NCBI RefSeq assembly: GCF_055900595.2
Contig: NZ_CM148325.1
Length of the DNA stretch: 64,000 nt
Strand: one strand, 5' to 3'
Part shown: piece after piece, positions 35,823 to 40,746 of the stretch
How the letters are laid out: each line of letters opens with the position of its first letter
How positions within the stretch are numbered: position 1 is the stretch's first letter
The notes under the pieces: model-generated
Seen by the model: only the letters and a program-made list of their open reading frames with translations
The model's database searches: none
What the model was told of the DNA's origin: nothing
Position numbers and translations under genes: made by a program

Positions 35823-36890
35823 ATGGATAAGAGTAAGCGCCATCTGGCGTGGTGGGTTGTCGGGTTACTGGCGGTGGCTACCGTCGTGGCGTGGTGGCTG
35901 TTGCGCCCGGCAGGTGTGCCGGAAGGCTTTGCCGTCAGCAATGGGCGCATTGAAGCGACGGAAGTGGATATCGCCAGCAAAATTGCCGGGCGTATCGATA
36001 CCATTCTGGTGAAAGAAGGCCAGTTTGTTCGCGAAGGCGAAGTGCTGGCGAAGATGGATACTCGCGTGTTGCAGGAACAGCGACTGGAAGCCATCGCGCA
36101 AATCAAAGAAGCACAAAGCGCCGTTGCCACCGCGCAGGCTTTGCTGGAGCAACGGCAAAGCGAAACTCGCGCCGCACAGTCGCTGGTTAATCAACGCCAG
36201 GCAGAACTGGACTCCGTGGCTAAACGTCATACGCGTTCCCGCTCGCTTGCCCAACGGGGGGCTATTTCTGCGCAACAGCTGGATGACGATCGCGCCGCCG
36301 CCGAGAGCGCCCGAGCCGCGCTGGAATCGGCGAAAGCTCAGGTATCGGCTTCTAAAGCGGCTATAGAAGCAGCACGCACCAATATCATTCAGGCGCAAAC
36401 GCGCGTCGAAGCGGCACAAGCCACTGAGCGGCGCATTGCCGCAGATATCGATGACAGTGAACTGAAAGCCCCGCGTGACGGACGCGTGCAGTATCGGGTT
36501 GCCGAGCCTGGGGAAGTGCTGGCAGCAGGCGGTCGGGTGCTAAATATGGTCGATCTCAGCGACGTCTATATGACCTTCTTCCTGCCAACTGAACAGGCAG
36601 GCACGCTGAAACTGGGCGGCGAAGCCCGGCTGATCCTCGATGCCGCGCCAGATCTGCGTATTCCTGCGTCCATCAGCTTTGTCGCCAGCGTCGCCCAGTT
36701 CACGCCAAAAACCGTCGAAACCAGCGATGAACGACTGAAACTGATGTTCCGTGTCAAAGCGCGTATCCCACCGGAATTACTCCAGCAGCATCTGGAATAT
36801 GTCAAAACCGGTTTGCCGGGCGTAGCGTGGGTACGGGTGAATGAAGAACTTCCGTGGCCTGACGACCTGGTGGTGAGGTTGCCGCAATGA
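35823..36890 (+). CDS. yhiI: HlyD-family membrane fusion protein YhiI
   Basis: ORF 35787-36890 trimmed to ATG 35823 ([22 protein letters not shown]..); single N-terminal TM then long coiled-coil; 4-bp overlap with rbbA. Confidence 0.88.
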
Positions 36891-39622
36891 CGCATCTGGA
36901 ACTGGTTCCCGTCCCGCCTGTCGCGCAACTGGCGGGCGTGAGCCAGCATTATGGAAAAACTGTTGCGCTGAACAATATCACTCTCGATATTCCGGCCCGC
37001 TGCATGGTTGGGCTGATTGGCCCGGACGGCGTCGGGAAGTCGAGTTTGTTGTCACTGATTTCCGGTGCCCGCGTCATTGAGCAGGGCAACGTGATCGTGC
37101 TGGGCGGCGATATGCGCGACCCGAGGCATCGCCGCGACGTCTGCCCGCGCATTGCCTGGATGCCGCAGGGACTGGGCAAAAACCTCTACCACACCTTGTC
37201 GGTGTATGAAAACGTCGATTTTTTCGCCCGCCTGTTCGGTCACGACAAAGCAGAGCGGGAAGTACGAATTAATGAACTGCTGACCAGCACCGGTTTAGCA
37301 CCGTTTCGCGATCGTCCGGCAGGGAAACTCTCTGGCGGGATGAAGCAAAAACTGGGGCTGTGCTGTGCGTTAATCCACGACCCGGAACTGTTGATTCTTG
37401 ATGAGCCTACGACGGGGGTTGACCCGCTCTCCCGCGCCCAGTTCTGGGATCTGATCGATAGCATTCGCCAGCGGCAGAGCAATATGAGCGTGCTGGTTGC
37501 CACCGCCTATATGGAAGAGGCGGAACGCTTCGACTGGCTGGTAGCGATGAATGCCGGAGAAGTACTGGCGACTGGCAGCGCCGAAGAGCTGCGGCAGCAA
37601 ACGCAAAGCGCCACGCTGGAAGAAGCATTTATAAATCTGTTACCGCAAGCACAACGGCAGGCGCATCAGGCGGTAGTGATCCCACCGTATCAACCTGAAA
37701 ACGCAGAGATTGCCATCGAAGCGCGCGATCTGACCATGCGTTTTGGTTCCTTCGTTGCCGTTGATCACGTCAATTTCCGCATTCCACGCGGGGAGATTTT
37801 TGGCTTCCTCGGTTCGAACGGCTGCGGTAAATCCACCACCATGAAAATGCTTACCGGACTGCTGCCTGCCAGCGAAGGTGAGGCGTGGCTGTTCGGGCAA
37901 CCGGTTGATCCAAAAGATATCGATACTCGCCGTCGGGTGGGCTATATGTCGCAGGCGTTTTCGCTCTATAACGAACTCACCGTGCGGCAAAACCTGGAGT
38001 TACATGCCCGTTTGTTTCACATTCCGGAAGCGGAAATTCCCGCGCGAGTGGCTGAAATGAGCGAGCGTTTTAAGCTCAACGACGTTGAAGATGTTCTGCC
38101 GGAGTCATTGCCGCTCGGCATTCGCCAGCGGCTTTCGCTGGCGGTGGCGGTGATTCATCGCCCGGAAATGTTAATCCTCGATGAGCCTACTTCTGGCGTC
38201 GATCCAGTGGCGAGGGATATGTTCTGGCAGTTAATGGTCGATCTTTCGCGCCAGGACAAAGTGACCATTTTCATCTCCACCCACTTTATGAACGAAGCGG
38301 AACGCTGCGACCGCATCTCACTAATGCACGCCGGAAAAGTGCTTGCCAGCGGTACACCGCAGGAACTGGTTGAGAAACGCGGAGCCGCCAGTCTGGAAGA
38401 GGCATTTATCGCCTATTTGCAGGAAGCGGCAGGGCAGAGCAACGAAGCCGAAGCGCCGCCTGTGGTACATGACACCACCCACGCGCCGCGTCAGGGATTT
38501 AGCCTGCGACGTCTGTTTAGCTACAGCCATCGCGAAGCACTGGAACTGCGCCGCGATCCGGTACGTTCGACGCTGGCGCTGATGGGAACGGTGATCCTGA
38601 TGCTGATAATGGGTTACGGCATCAGTATGGATGTGGAAAATCTGCGCTTTGCGGTGCTTGATCGCGACCAGACCGTCAGTAGCCAGGCGTGGACGCTCAA
38701 TCTCTCCGGTTCCCGTTATTTTATCGAACAGCCGCCGCTCACCAGTTATGACGAGCTTGATCGTCGGATGCGTGCGGGCGATATCACGGTGGCGATTGAG
38801 ATTCCACCCAATTTCGGGCGCGATATCGCGCGTGGTACGCCTGTGGAACTCGGTGTCTGGATCGACGGTGCGATGCCCAGTCGCGCCGAAACGGTAAAAG
38901 GTTACGTGCAGGCCATGCACCAGAGCTGGCTACAGGATGTGGCGAGTCGGCAATCCACGCCCGCGAGCCAAAGCGGGCTGATGAATATTGAGACGCGCTA
39001 TCGCTATAACCCGGACGTAAAAAGCTTGCCAGCGATTGTTCCGGCGGTGATCCCGCTGTTGCTGATGATGATTCCGTCGATGTTAAGCGCCCTTAGCGTA
39101 GTGCGGGAAAAAGAGTTGGGGTCGATTATCAACCTTTACGTGACTCCTACCACCCGTAGCGAATTTTTGCTTGGCAAACAGCTGCCGTACATCGGGCTGG
39201 GGATGCTGAACTTTTTCCTGCTCTGTGCCTTGTCGGTGTTTGTGTTTGGCGTGCCGCATAAAGGCAGTTTCCTGACGCTCACCCTGGCGGCGCTGCTGTA
39301 TATCATCATCGCCACTGGTATGGGGCTGCTGATCTCCACCTTTATGAAAAGCCAGATTGCCGCCATTTTCGGTACGGCGATTATCACGTTGATTCCGGCG
39401 ACGCAGTTTTCCGGGATGATCGATCCGGTAGCTTCGCTGGAAGGTCCAGGACGTTGGATCGGCGAGGTTTACCCTACCAGTCATTTTCTGACTATCGCCC
39501 GCGGGACGTTCTCGAAGGCGCTGGATCTGACGGATTTATGGCAACTTTTTATCCCGTTGCTGATAGCCATTCCACTGGTGATGGGCTTAAGCATCCTGCT
39601 GCTGAAAAAACAGGAGGGATGA
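36887..39622 (+). CDS. rbbA: Ribosome-associated ATPase RbbA (tandem ABC ATPase domains fused to ABC-2 permease)
   Basis: 911 aa ORF; two Walker A motifs ([18 protein letters not shown]), two LSGG signature motifs, C-terminal multi-TM domain. Confidence 0.9.
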
Positions 39623-40746
39623 TGCGCCATTTACGCAATATTTTTAATCTGGGTATCAAAGAGTTGCGCAGTCTGCTTGGTGATAAAGCGATGCTGACGC
39701 TGATTATTTTCTCGTTTACGGTGTCGGTTTATTCATCAGCGACCGTCACGCCAGGATCGTTGAACCTCGCGCCGATCGCCATTGCTGATATGGATCAATC
39801 GCAGTTATCGAACCGGATCGTTAACAGCTTCTACCGCCCGTGGTTTTTGCCCCCGGAGATGATCACCGCCGATGAGATGGATGCCGGGCTGGACGCCGGG
39901 CGCTATACCTTCGCGATAAATATTCCGCCTAATTTTCAGCGTGATGTCCTCGCCGGACGTCAGCCGGATATTCAGGTGAACGTCGATGCCACGCGCATGA
40001 GCCAGGCATTCACTGGCAACGGTTATATCCAGAATATTATCAACGGTGAAGTGAACAGCTTTGTCGCTCGCTACCGTGATAACAGCGAACCGTTGGTATC
40101 GCTGGAAACCCGCATGCGCTTTAACCCGAACCTCGATCCCGCATGGTTTGGCGGGGTGATGGCGATCATCAACAACATTACCATGCTGGCGATTGTGTTG
40201 ACCGGATCGGCGCTGATCCGCGAGCGTGAACACGGCACGGTGGAACACTTACTGGTGATGCCGATAACGCCGTTTGAGATCATGATGGCGAAGATCTGGT
40301 CGATGGGGCTGGTGGTGCTGGTGGTATCGGGATTATCGCTGGTGCTGATGGTAAAAGGCGTGCTGGGCGTACCGATAGAAGGCTCGATCCCGCTGTTTAT
40401 GCTTGGCGTGGCGCTCAGTCTGTTTGCCACCACGTCAATCGGCATTTTTATGGGGACGATAGCGCGTTCAATGCCGCAACTGGGGCTGCTGGTGATTCTG
40501 GTGCTACTGCCGCTGCAAATGCTTTCCGGTGGCTCCACGCCGCGCGAAAGTATGCCGCAGATGGTGCAGGACATTATGCTGACCATGCCGACGACACACT
40601 TTGTCAGCCTCGCGCAGGCCATCCTCTACCGGGGTGCCGGATTCGAAATCGTCTGGCCGCAGTTCCTGACGCTAATGGCAATTGGCGGCGCGTTTTTCAC
40701 CATCGCGCTGCTGCGATTCAGGAAGACGATTGGGACAATGGCGTAA
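39619..40746 (+). CDS. yhhJ: ABC-2 family inner membrane permease YhhJ
   Basis: Frame of ORF 39454-40746; start placed at ATG 39619 ([23 protein letters not shown]..) overlapping the rbbA stop (ATGA); the next ATG at 39622 is equally possible. Confidence 0.88.

What the first reader, a model, noticed from the sequence alone, without database searches (positions are those of the whole stretch)
35823..40746. yhiI-rbbA-yhhJ: membrane fusion protein plus ABC ATPase-permease fusion plus extra ABC-2 permease
Three translationally coupled genes (4-bp and 1-4-bp overlaps) encode a HlyD-type periplasmic adaptor, a 911-aa protein with two ABC ATPase cassettes fused to an ABC-2 permease domain, and a separate ABC-2 permease. 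The architecture is that of a tripartite efflux system, although rbbA is better known as a ribosome-associated ATPase. The operon structure seen here argues for a transport role.
Basis: inference. Interest (0 to 1): 0.3.

Follow-up and report, generated by a model that had tools for sequence, protein, structure and literature searches.

The report
E. coli yhiI-rbbA-yhhJ ABC exporter operon
This is the well-known, already annotated E. coli yhiI-rbbA-yhhJ operon. Sequence, gene-neighbourhood and modelled-structure evidence say it encodes an envelope-spanning ABC export pump of unknown cargo, not a dedicated ribosome factor, and that prediction is already in the literature.

Summary
Three same-strand genes lie at 35823-40746:
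- yhiI, 355 aa, a HlyD-type adaptor.
- rbbA, 911 aa, two ABC ATPase cassettes fused to a 6-TM ABC-2 permease.
- yhhJ, 374 aa, a second ABC-2 permease.

They are joined by ATGA (4-bp) and TGATG (1-bp) overlaps. The locus is 100% identical to E. coli Z0117EC0005 and is present in 5413 of 5426 complete E. coli genomes.

The transport reading is supported:
- The operon matches the E. coli pump operon ybhG-ybhF-ybhS-ybhR domain by domain, with ybhF and ybhS fused.
- In 74 homologues one ATP site is degenerate and the other canonical. This implies an intramolecular NBD1:NBD2 dimer sitting under two membrane domains.
- The adaptor gene lies directly upstream in 71 of 71 evaluable loci.
- A TolC-family gene is adjacent in 17 of 59.
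- The YhiI model has a 64-residue hairpin carrying the TolC-binding RLS motif at its tip, and it best matches EmrA and MacA.
- RbbA lacks the ABC-F hallmarks.
- The operon is deleted in the viable strain DGF-298.

The substrate is unknown and no efflux experiment was found. The prediction ("YhiH/YhhJ") and the dual RefSeq name already exist, so this is already known and of low interest.

The parts
35647..35760 (+). yhiY, a 37-aa small ORF 62 nt upstream of yhiI on the same strand. Whether it belongs to the operon as a leader or co-transcript is uncertain.
   Evidence: Annotated 'protein YhiY' in the 100%-identical RefSeq record. No NCBIfam family. The only promoter-like site in the intergenic region (35462-35489) lies upstream of it, and the number of such sites is not above shuffles.
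35823..36890 (+). yhiI, the periplasmic adaptor (membrane fusion protein), 355 aa. It has an N-terminal TM anchor (residues 8-26), a lipoyl domain, a long alpha-hairpin (81-144 / 150-211) and a beta-barrel. It has no membrane-proximal domain.
   Evidence: Pfam HlyD_3, HlyD_D23 and Biotin_lipoyl_2. 30% identical to YbhG, E 3e-30. AF2 model with pLDDT 94.8. Best PDB fold matches are EmrA in EmrAB-TolC, and MacA.
36234..36269 (+). RLS motif (R138-x3-L142-x6-S149, [12 protein letters not shown]) at the tip of the YhiI hairpin.
   Evidence: Regex hit. The tip loop 145-149 of the model lies inside it. Conserved as R 59/63, L 59/63, S/T 54/63 in adaptors of this family. Motif definition and TolC-binding role come from PMC3391258.
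36887..36890 (+). ATGA: the yhiI stop overlaps the rbbA start (translational coupling).
   Evidence: A 4-bp overlap is possible in 37 of 64 related loci.
36887..39622 (+). rbbA (formerly yhiH), 911 aa, with domain order NBD1-NBD2-TMD.
   Evidence: Pfam 2x ABC_tran plus ABC2_membrane_3. NCBIfam NF033858 equivalog at 1596.8 bits. AF2 model with pLDDT 89.
36923..37642 (+). NBD1 (about aa 13-252). Walker A GPDGVGKS (37019-37042), canonical signature LSGGM (37328-37342), Walker B LLILDEP. The H-loop histidine is replaced by Ala207 (TAY, 37502-37510).
   Evidence: LSGGM in 74/74 homologues; His at the H-loop position in 0/74.
37709..38431 (+). NBD2 (about aa 275-515). Walker A GSNGCGKS (37811-37834), degenerate signature LPLGI (38108-38122), Walker B MLILDEP, H-loop His466 (38282-38284).
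   Evidence: L-P-L-G in 71/71/67/73 of 74; His466 in 74/74. 45% identical to YbhF NBD2.
38504..39601 (+). RbbA membrane domain (about aa 540-905). An interface helix, TM1, an alpha/beta extracytoplasmic domain of about 140 aa (aa 579-712), then TM2-TM6.
   Evidence: Hydropathy scan. AF2 secondary structure. 32% identical to YbhS, E 2e-50. Top fold match is ABCH-9C.
39622..40746 (+). yhhJ, the second ABC-2 permease, 374 aa. TM1 (18-36), a periplasmic loop of about 145 aa, then five more TM segments. Its start shares one base with the rbbA stop (TGATG).
   Evidence: Pfam ABC2_membrane_3 6.5e-35. Paralogue of the RbbA TMD at 28-29% identity, with YbhR as its best partner. Hydropathy.

Best explanation
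yhiI-rbbA-yhhJ most likely encodes an adaptor-dependent ABC exporter that spans the cell envelope. It is a paralogue of YbhGFSR.

Shown by sequence:
- One RbbA chain supplies both ATPase domains and one 6-TM ABC-2 membrane domain.
- YhhJ supplies the second membrane domain.
- Each membrane domain carries a periplasmic domain of about 140 residues between TM1 and TM2.

Shown as a conserved pattern, with the function inferred:
- NBD1 and NBD2 form one intramolecular head-to-tail dimer.
- One ATP site is degenerate. It combines the NBD1 Walker A side, which lacks the H-loop histidine, with the NBD2 signature LPLG.
- The other site is catalytic. It combines the NBD2 Walker A, Walker B and His466 with the NBD1 signature LSGGM.
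- Hydrolysis at the single competent site would drive the cycle, as in other asymmetric ABC exporters.

Inferred:
- YhiI is anchored by one TM helix. It would oligomerise over the periplasmic domains and reach an outer-membrane channel through its hairpin of about 64 residues, using the RLS tip motif.
- In E. coli that channel would be the unlinked TolC. In many other bacteria a TolC-family gene sits in the same operon.

Not known:
- The cargo. The nearest relatives by sequence and fold are lipid or lipophile exporters of the ABCA, ABCH, DrrAB and NodIJ types. This makes an amphipathic or membrane-embedded substrate the best guess.

The reported stimulation of in-vitro translation concerns a truncated soluble NBD fragment. 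It is probably not the protein's main job.
For: 1. Domain architecture and family membership.

2. Colinear paralogy with ybhG-ybhF-ybhS-ybhR:
- YhiI~YbhG, 30% identity.
- NBD1 and NBD2 ~ the YbhF NBDs, 40-45% identity.
- RbbA TMD~YbhS, 32% identity; 169 bits against 117 for YbhR.
- YhhJ~YbhR; 115 bits against 85 for YbhS.
- YbhFSR has published efflux phenotypes, and YbhG is described as its adaptor (PMC7190983).

3. ATP-site asymmetry conserved in 74 homologues down to 32% identity.

4. Gene neighbourhoods in 80 loci from Alpha-, Beta-, Gamma- and Deltaproteobacteria, Myxococcota, Bacteroidota and Lentisphaerae:
- Adaptor directly upstream in 71 of 71 evaluable loci.
- Fused ABC protein plus a separate permease in 77 of 80.
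- TolC-family gene adjacent on the same strand in 17 of 59 fully evaluable loci.
- Independent metagenome contigs show an MFP-ABC-permease-OEP operon (L009) and a divergent OEP gene (L007).

5. YhiI model with pLDDT 94.8, a 64+62-residue hairpin and RLS at the tip. Its best PDB matches are EmrA in EmrAB-TolC and MacA in MacAB-TolC. RLS is conserved.

6. RbbA model with pLDDT 89. The top fold match is the NBD-TMD ceramide exporter ABCH-9C. The tandem NBDs superpose on the fused transporter NBDs DppD and OppD at TM 0.77-0.80, against about 0.6 for ribosome-bound EttA.

7. Full-length RbbA-mCherry is distributed throughout the membrane (PMC6788730).

8. The operon is absent from the viable genome-reduced strain DGF-298 (PMC10652928). 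It also lies within a deletion selected in paraquat evolution.
Against: - No efflux, susceptibility or co-purification experiment for YhiI, RbbA or YhhJ was found in the searched literature.
- The E. coli locus has no outer-membrane-factor gene, and 42 of 59 evaluable related loci have none adjacent. The detection used only three seed sequences, so it may undercount.
- Flanking genes give no clue to the substrate. At most 3 of 111 neighbours share a Pfam family.
- A truncated RbbA does change in-vitro translation yields 1.3- to 2.1-fold (PMC12096078). Older biochemistry, which I recall from the Ganoza laboratory and did not re-read, reported binding to the ribosome.
- The structures are single-chain predictions. 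No complex was modelled.
Confidence: 0.72

Rival explanations
1. RbbA is primarily a ribosome-bound ATPase, an eEF3-like or ABC-F-like elongation helper that ejects E-site tRNA. On this view its membrane domain and its operon partners are secondary.
For: - Literature tradition summarised in PMC8807479 and PMC12096078.
- A truncated RbbA lacking the TM domain raises yields of some model peptides 1.3- to 2.1-fold in a reconstituted system.
- Tandem NBDs are also the ABC-F layout, and EttA and Uup appear among the fold matches at lower scores.
Against: - The ABC-F hallmarks are absent. There is no ABC_tran_Xtn/PtIM Pfam hit. The inter-NBD linker is 15-35 aa, median 23, in 74 homologues. A 6-TM domain is fused in every full-length homologue.
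- One ATP site is degenerate in all 74 homologues.
- The main in-vivo paper (RbbA-YhjD) was retracted in 2025 (PMC12169533).
- Full-length protein sits in the membrane.
- The gene is dispensable.
- Adaptor and permease genes accompany it in 71 of 71 and 77 of 80 loci.
Confidence: 0.06
2. Dual function. The complex is a transporter, and in addition the cytoplasmic NBD pair, or a proteolytic soluble fragment of it, binds ribosomes. This could link translation to export or to membrane status.
For: It reconciles the transporter architecture with the in-vitro translation effects. The tandem NBDs have a surface broadly comparable to ABC-F proteins.
Against: - There is no conserved ribosome-binding element.
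- The in-vitro effects are small, turn inhibitory at higher concentration, and resemble those of any E-site competitor.
- The NBD surface that would face a ribosome is the one that must dock onto the membrane domains.
- Nothing in the neighbourhoods points to translation.
Confidence: 0.1
3. It is an adaptor-dependent ABC machine that does not use an outer-membrane channel in E. coli. It would move or extract a substrate only as far as the periplasm or outer leaflet, or act as a mechanotransducer like LolCDE or FtsEX, with YhiI serving as a periplasmic sheath.
For: - There is no outer-membrane-factor gene at the E. coli locus, nor in 42 of 59 evaluable related loci.
- YhiI lacks a membrane-proximal domain.
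- The large periplasmic domains on both permeases could be the working parts.
Against: - The hairpin is long (64+62 residues), and the TolC-binding RLS motif is conserved at its tip.
- The best structural matches are adaptors solved in complex with TolC.
- Where an outer-membrane-factor gene is present it is usually immediately upstream in the same operon.
- From general knowledge, E. coli pumps AcrAB, MacAB and EmrAB also lack a linked tolC.
Confidence: 0.12

Closest known systems
E. coli YbhG-YbhFSR (cecR-ybhGFSR operon)
   Same: Same gene order and the same four protein modules, matching position by position:
- HlyD-type adaptor with the RLS motif.
- Tandem-NBD ATPase with the same degenerate pattern, H-loop STSY in NBD1 and signature LPLGF in NBD2.
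- Two different ABC2_membrane_3 permeases.

Both are predicted TolC-dependent pumps, and YbhFSR has published efflux phenotypes (PMC7190983).
   Different: - In rbbA the ATPase and the first permease are one polypeptide. In ybh they are separate genes.
- There is no adjacent TetR-type regulator like cecR. A small ORF, yhiY, lies upstream instead.
- No substrate is known.
- Sequence identity is only 25-45%.
- One Desulfuromonadales genome carries both types in tandem (L016), so they are distinct lineages.
MacAB-TolC (ABC-type tripartite pump)
   Same: An ABC transporter with large periplasmic domains, a HlyD-family adaptor with a long hairpin and the RLS motif, and an unlinked TolC in E. coli. 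MacA is among the best fold matches of YhiI.
   Different: - MacB is a homodimer with a 4-TM FtsX-type fold. RbbA and YhhJ are 6-TM ABC-2 domains, with no FtsX or MacB_PCD Pfam hit, and they form a heterodimer fed by a tandem-NBD chain.
- YhiI is TM-anchored and lacks the membrane-proximal domain that MacA has.
EmrA (adaptor of EmrAB-TolC)
   Same: It is the best sequence match (E 1e-9) and best fold match (E 7e-22) of YhiI. Both have an N-terminal TM anchor, a long hairpin and no membrane-proximal domain.
   Different: EmrA serves an MFS transporter, not an ABC transporter. Identity is about 18%.
Type V / ABC-2 exporters of lipids and lipophiles (ABCA1/3/4/7, insect ABCH-9C, DrrAB, NodIJ)
   Same: - The NBDs hit ABCA3, ABCA4 and ABCA1 best among solved structures (E 7e-70), and DrrA and NodI among NCBIfam models.
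- The whole-chain model best matches ABCH-9C bound to ceramide.
- YhhJ matches the ABCH-9C membrane domain (E 4e-7).
- Domain order is NBD before TMD, with an extracytoplasmic domain after TM1.
   Different: - Those systems have no periplasmic adaptor or outer-membrane partner.
- The arrangement NBD-NBD-TMD plus a free TMD is not theirs.
- Similarity in fold does not identify the substrate.
ABC-F translation factors (EttA, Uup, YbiT, YheS)
   Same: Two ABC cassettes in one chain, and a literature claim of E-site binding and ATP-dependent effects on translation.
   Different: - There is no PtIM/ABC_tran_Xtn linker. The linker here is about 23 aa, against roughly 80 aa in ABC-F proteins by general knowledge.
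- RbbA has a fused membrane domain, one degenerate ATP site, and an operon with an adaptor and a permease.
- Superposition on ribosome-bound EttA is poorer than on transporter NBDs.

Membership tests
RbbA family (NCBIfam NF033858, ABC2_perm_RbbA equivalog) | Whole-protein score above the curated cut-off of the equivalog model | tested here: met
   1596.8 bits against a cut-off of 1050, covering residues 12-910.
ABC-2 (type V) ABC exporter | ABC ATPase motifs present: Walker A, Q-loop, signature, Walker B with catalytic Glu | tested here: met
   Both NBDs have Walker A, Q-loop and Walker B-Glu. One signature is canonical and one degenerate.
ABC-2 (type V) ABC exporter | ABC-2 membrane domain of six TM helices C-terminal to the NBD, two such domains per transporter | tested here: met
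   - ABC2_membrane_3 scores 2.4e-39 for RbbA 569-903 and 6.5e-35 for YhhJ.
- RbbA has six hydrophobic segments. The YhhJ scan lists seven, of which two adjacent ones (218-236 and 238-256) I read as a single helix, giving six.
- The model shows six long helices.
- The top fold match is ABCH-9C.
Tripartite (adaptor-dependent) efflux pump | Periplasmic adaptor of the HlyD/MFP family encoded with the transporter | tested here: met
   yhiI overlaps rbbA by 4 bp. Pfam HlyD_3 and HlyD_D23. The adaptor lies upstream in 71 of 71 evaluable related loci.
Tripartite (adaptor-dependent) efflux pump | Adaptor alpha-hairpin with the TolC-docking RLS tip motif (RxxxLxxxxxxS; PMC3391258) | tested here: met
   R138, L142 and S149 sit at the tip of a 64+62-residue hairpin. 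The motif is conserved in 54-59 of 63 homologues. Actual binding to TolC was not tested.
Tripartite (adaptor-dependent) efflux pump | Outer-membrane factor (TolC/OEP family) partner | tested here: inconclusive
   The window holds no outer-membrane-factor gene next to the operon. A TolC-family gene is adjacent in 17 of 59 evaluable related loci, and in L009 and L007. Use of the unlinked tolC in E. coli is inferred.
Tripartite (adaptor-dependent) efflux pump | Demonstrated ATP-dependent export of a substrate | not testable with these tools
   No experiment found in seven literature searches. The system is only listed as predicted.
ABC-F translation factors | Soluble protein: two NBDs and no membrane domain | tested here: not met
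   A 6-TM ABC-2 domain is fused to the NBDs. Full-length protein localises to the membrane (PMC6788730).
ABC-F translation factors | Long inter-NBD linker forming the P-site tRNA interaction motif (Pfam ABC_tran_Xtn, PF12848) | tested here: not met
   No PF12848 hit at E<=0.001. The linker is 23 aa in E. coli and 15-35 aa in 74 homologues.
ABC-F translation factors | Binding to the ribosomal E site | not testable with these tools
   Only literature claims with a truncated protein. The supporting in-vivo paper was retracted.
MacB/FtsX (type VII) ABC family. The Chem Rev review PMC8277102 files the paralogue YbhFSR here. | Four-TM FtsX-type membrane domain with a MacB-type periplasmic core domain | tested here: not met
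   Pfam gives ABC2_membrane families only, with no FtsX or MacB_PCD hit. Each permease has six TM segments. The fold match is ABCH-9C, not MacB.

The most novel reading that the evidence does not exclude
Both literatures are right. On this reading the RbbA-YhhJ-YhiI(-TolC) conduit is an envelope-spanning exporter whose cytoplasmic tandem-NBD module also docks translating ribosomes. Synthesis of some peptide or small protein would then be coupled directly to its ATP-driven export across both membranes. The evidence here does not exclude this, but nothing in the sequence or the neighbourhoods calls for it.
Probability: 0.03. Interest if true: 0.8.

Novelty: already known. Interest (0 to 1): 0.22.

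Why it matters
The locus is core E. coli and is annotated under two incompatible names. One of the main in-vivo papers behind the ribosome name was retracted in 2025, yet RbbA is still used as a 'translation factor' in vitro.

The comparative evidence assembled here has three strands:
- Paralogy with YbhGFSR.
- Conserved asymmetric ATP sites.
- Linkage to adaptor and TolC-family genes across phyla.

Together these argue that databases and users should treat RbbA first as the motor of an uncharacterised exporter. If its cargo were found, it would fill one of the few remaining gaps among the ABC exporters of E. coli. It might also reveal an endogenous lipid-like substrate rather than a drug. 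None of this is a new kind of system.

Tried and rejected
- The 90%-cluster protein search with RbbA returned only near-identical E. coli entries and gave no diversity. The representative search and the genome scan were used instead.
- The promoter and terminator scan of 35400-41300 found nothing above shuffles, so I make no promoter claim.
- Rfam found no RNA family in 35000-41500 at E<=1. The 'riboswitch entropy' paper merely lists the operon in a table.
- A Pfam census of 111 flanking ORFs in related loci found no recurrent partner; the largest count was 3. This gives no clue to the substrate. The census took the three longest ORFs per locus, so small regulators could be missed.
- ORFs of 1273-1315 aa that seemed to fuse the adaptor to the ABC protein in three high-GC loci (L023, L037, L050) were artefacts of open alternative frames. 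Domain-level mapping found the separate adaptor in these loci.
- RbbA-YhhJ fusions of 1283-1286 aa in some E. coli assemblies are frameshift products near the A6 tract, or further upstream where they destroy TM6. They are not a natural full-length transporter.
- I considered a paired RbbA-TMD/YhhJ concatenated model.
- Literature searches for efflux, TolC or complex data on YhiI, YhhJ or RbbA found none.
- ABC-F membership and MacB/FtsX membership were both tested and rejected (see the membership table).

Full report
**What is there**

The window is 99.98% identical and collinear with the chromosome of E. coli Z0117EC0005. Three genes lie on the + strand at the coordinates given.

| Gene | Coordinates | Length | Pfam domains |
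|---|---|---|---|
| yhiI | 35823-36890 | 355 aa | HlyD_3, HlyD_D23, Biotin_lipoyl_2 |
| rbbA | 36887-39622 | 911 aa | two ABC_tran stretches, plus ABC2_membrane_3 at residues 569-903 |
| yhhJ | 39622-40746 | 374 aa | ABC2_membrane_3 |

- yhiI and rbbA share ATGA. rbbA and yhhJ share the A of TGATG. An in-frame ATG three bases earlier would give a 4-bp overlap.
- RbbA passes the NCBIfam RbbA equivalog, with 1596.8 bits against a cut-off of 1050.
- RefSeq annotates the same genes at the same positions.
- The stretch is present in 5413 of 5426 complete E. coli genomes.

**Anatomy**

- Hydropathy gives YhiI a single N-terminal TM segment.
- RbbA has six TM segments, with a loop of about 140 residues between TM1 and TM2.
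- YhhJ has the same plan. The scan lists seven hydrophobic segments there; two adjacent ones (218-236 and 238-256) I read as one helix.
- YhhJ is a paralogue of the RbbA membrane domain, at 28-29% identity.
- Both NBDs have Walker A, a Q-loop and a Walker B with the catalytic Glu.
- NBD1 has a canonical signature, LSGGM, but Ala in place of the H-loop His.
- NBD2 has the H-loop His but a degenerate signature, LPLGI.
- An ATP site is built from the Walker A, Walker B and H-loop side of one NBD and the signature of the other. This is established ABC enzymology. Both defects therefore fall in the same composite site, and the other site is fully canonical.

This asymmetry is conserved in 74 homologues down to 32% identity:

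| Feature | Count |
|---|---|
| NBD1 signature LSGGM | 74/74 |
| His at the NBD1 H-loop position | 0/74 |
| NBD2 signature L-P-L-G | 71/71/67/73 of 74 |
| NBD2 H-loop His466 | 74/74 |

The asymmetry makes sense only if NBD1 pairs with NBD2 within one chain. That in turn calls for two membrane domains, RbbA's own and YhhJ.

**Paralogy**

The operon matches K-12 ybhG-ybhF-ybhS-ybhR module by module.

| Module here | ybh partner | Evidence |
|---|---|---|
| YhiI | YbhG | 30% identity, E 3e-30 |
| RbbA NBD1 and NBD2 | the two NBDs of YbhF, in the same order | 40-45% identity |
| RbbA membrane domain | YbhS | 32% identity, E 2e-50; 169 bits against 117 for YbhR |
| YhhJ | YbhR | 115 bits against 85 for YbhS |

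- YbhF shows the same motif asymmetry.
- rbbA is therefore a ybhF-ybhS fusion equivalent.
- YbhFSR has published efflux phenotypes, and YbhG is regarded as its adaptor to TolC (PMC7190983).

**Comparative genomics**

- A HMMER scan of 1.84 billion representative proteins found full-length NBD-NBD-TMD homologues down to about 32% identity.
- A scan of GTDB species genomes kept 80 loci. They come from Alpha-, Beta-, Gamma- and Deltaproteobacteria, Myxococcota, Bacteroidota (Alistipes) and Lentisphaerae.
- I called ORFs in these loci and searched them with YhiI/YbhG, the RbbA parts, YhhJ/YbhS/YbhR and three TolC-family seeds.

| Neighbourhood feature | Count |
|---|---|
| Adaptor gene directly upstream on the same strand | 71 of 71 loci with enough sequence |
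| Fused ABC gene followed by a separate permease | 77 of 80 |
| TolC-family gene adjacent on the same strand, usually immediately upstream of the adaptor | 17 of 59 fully evaluable loci (20 loci in all) |

- The TolC-family figure is a lower bound, because only three seeds were used.
- The enterobacterial loci (E. albertii, Citrobacter, Providencia) have no adjacent outer-membrane-factor gene. This fits the E. coli habit of using an unlinked tolC, which is general knowledge.
- Independent metagenome contigs show the same picture. L009 has adaptor-ABC-permease-OEP in one operon. L007 has a divergent OEP gene. L005 and L010 have the three-gene core.
- The junctions stay tight.
- Genes beyond this core are heterogeneous, so the module is self-contained and the cargo is not revealed.

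**Structure predictions**

YhiI, from 63 sequences, folds with mean pLDDT 94.8:
- TM helix at residues 3-27.
- A lipoyl domain, a beta-barrel, and a hairpin of 64+62 residues (81-144 and 150-211).
- No membrane-proximal domain.
- The tip loop (145-149) lies inside R138-x3-L142-x6-S149. This is the RLS motif that forms the TolC-binding interface of MacA, AcrA and HlyD (PMC3391258).
- R, L and S/T are kept in 59, 59 and 54 of 63 family adaptors.
- The best PDB fold matches are EmrA within EmrAB-TolC (E 7e-22), EmrA alone, and MacA within MacAB-TolC.

RbbA, from 74 sequences, folds with pLDDT 89 and pTM 0.79:
- Its best whole-chain match is the NBD-TMD ceramide exporter ABCH-9C.
- Its tandem NBDs superpose on the fused NBD subunits DppD and OppD of mycobacterial transporters at TM 0.77-0.80 and rmsd 4.3-5.0 Å.
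- They fit ribosome-bound EttA and Uup less well, at TM about 0.6 and rmsd 9-10 Å.
- By sequence, the NBDs are closest to ABCA lipid exporters among solved structures, and to DrrA and NodI among NCBIfam models.

**The ribosome story**

- The name RbbA comes from biochemistry on a ribosome-bound ATPase. I recall this from the Ganoza laboratory and did not re-read it. It is summarised.
- A 2025 study still uses RbbA alongside ABC-F proteins. It explicitly uses a truncated form lacking the TM domain, because the full-length protein is unstable. The effects are 1.3- to 2.1-fold and become inhibitory at higher concentration (PMC12096078).
- The in-vivo paper linking RbbA to YhjD and ribosomes was retracted in June 2025 over image concerns (PMC12169533).
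- Full-length RbbA-mCherry is spread through the membrane (PMC6788730).
- The whole operon is missing from the viable reduced-genome strain DGF-298 (PMC10652928). It also lies in a deletion selected during paraquat evolution.
- RbbA fails two defining ABC-F features that I could test: it is not soluble, and it has no PtIM linker.
- I therefore rate 'primarily a ribosome factor' at about 0.06 and a moonlighting role at about 0.1.

**Most likely mechanism**

Shown by sequence:
- One RbbA chain plus one YhhJ chain supply two NBDs and two ABC-2 membrane domains.
- Each membrane domain carries a periplasmic domain.

Inferred from the conserved motif pattern:
- ATP is hydrolysed only at the NBD2-centred site.
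- The degenerate site holds ATP as a structural or regulatory latch, as in other asymmetric ABC exporters.

Inferred from models, motif and gene linkage:
- YhiI, probably as a hexamer like MacA and EmrA, sits on the periplasmic domains.
- It contacts TolC, or a cognate outer-membrane factor where one is encoded, tip to tip.
- Substrate is expelled across the outer membrane.

Guess:
- The cargo is amphipathic or lipid-like, given the ABCA, ABCH and DrrAB affinities.

A rival version in which no outer-membrane channel is used in E. coli keeps about 0.12.

**Novelty**

None of the essentials is new.
- RefSeq already writes 'ribosome-associated ATPase/putative transporter RbbA'.
- Reviews and papers list 'YhiH/YhhJ' among the predicted ABC drug efflux pumps of K-12 (PMC9728188, PMC9407594).
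The ATP-site asymmetry, the outer-membrane-factor linkage statistics, the position of RLS at the modelled tip, and the explicit failure of the ABC-F and MacB membership tests all belong here.
- One review files the paralogue YbhFSR under the MacB family (PMC8277102). Pfam and TM counts place both systems in ABC-2 instead.

**Verdict**

The feature is real and ordinary. Interest is low (0.22). What remains of interest is the unresolved cargo and the conflict between the two names.

Noticed in passing
window 35647-35760 (+): yhiY, a 37-aa small ORF (MMTTLLPVFTKPSPLALNALRAGRICRFLLIPDGRIR), ends 62 nt before yhiI on the same strand. It matches no NCBIfam family. It could be a leader or co-transcribed small protein of the operon.
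   Followed up: partly
window about 31966-35500: There is a sharp compositional step just upstream of the operon. GC is 0.33-0.41 over yhiJ (33835-35457) and a DUF4049 paralogue annotated as a pseudogene with an internal stop (31966-33573). GC is 0.52-0.61 from 35500 onward. This looks like an AT-rich, probably acquired, island abutting the operon.
   Followed up: no
window 40746-40755: yhhJ and nikR are convergent, with only 8 nt between their stop codons and no convincing terminator. In K-12 the rhsB-yhhH-yrhC-yhhI block lies beside yhhJ, on the evidence of the deletion list in PMC10652928. It is absent between yhhJ and nikR in this strain. This probably explains why most E. coli genomes match the query in two separate places.
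   Followed up: partly
window about 46187-61789 (- strand): Between nikA and yhhT lies a cluster with the hallmarks of an aryl-polyene-type lipid gene cluster. It holds acpT, several ketoacyl-ACP synthases, ApeI and ApeP dehydratases, FabG2, acyl carrier proteins, a LolA-family protein, an MMPL transporter, a glycosyltransferase and a lysophospholipid acyltransferase. It brings its own MMPL/LolA export genes and is unrelated to the finding.
   Followed up: no
window about 1907-10858: The chu/shu haem uptake and utilisation cluster (chuS, chuA, shuT, hutW, hutX, chuY, shuU and a haem ABC transporter ATP-binding protein gene) lies between yhiD and dctR. By general knowledge it is typical of non-K-12 lineages.
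   Followed up: no
proteins P0001-P0010 (E. coli assemblies); junction at window about 39600-39625: A few E. coli records carry ORFs of 1283-1286 aa that fuse RbbA to YhhJ. In P0002 the frame changes at the A6 tract just before the stop (…LLLKNRRMMRHL…). In P0008 the shift is further upstream and destroys TM6. These are probably homopolymer frameshifts or sequencing errors.
   Followed up: partly
L016 5874-16392 (Desulfuromonadales MAG): An RbbA-type operon (adaptor, fused ABC, permease) is followed immediately by a YbhGFSR-type operon (adaptor, 657-aa tandem-NBD protein, two permeases) on the same strand. Both paralogous systems therefore sit in tandem in one genome.
   Followed up: no
Literature: PMC8277102, section 5.7: A major review places YbhFSR in the MacB/FtsX family and names ybhF as the adaptor gene. 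Pfam and TM counts for the paralogous proteins here indicate ABC-2 6-TM permeases instead, and the adaptor of that operon is YbhG.
   Followed up: partly
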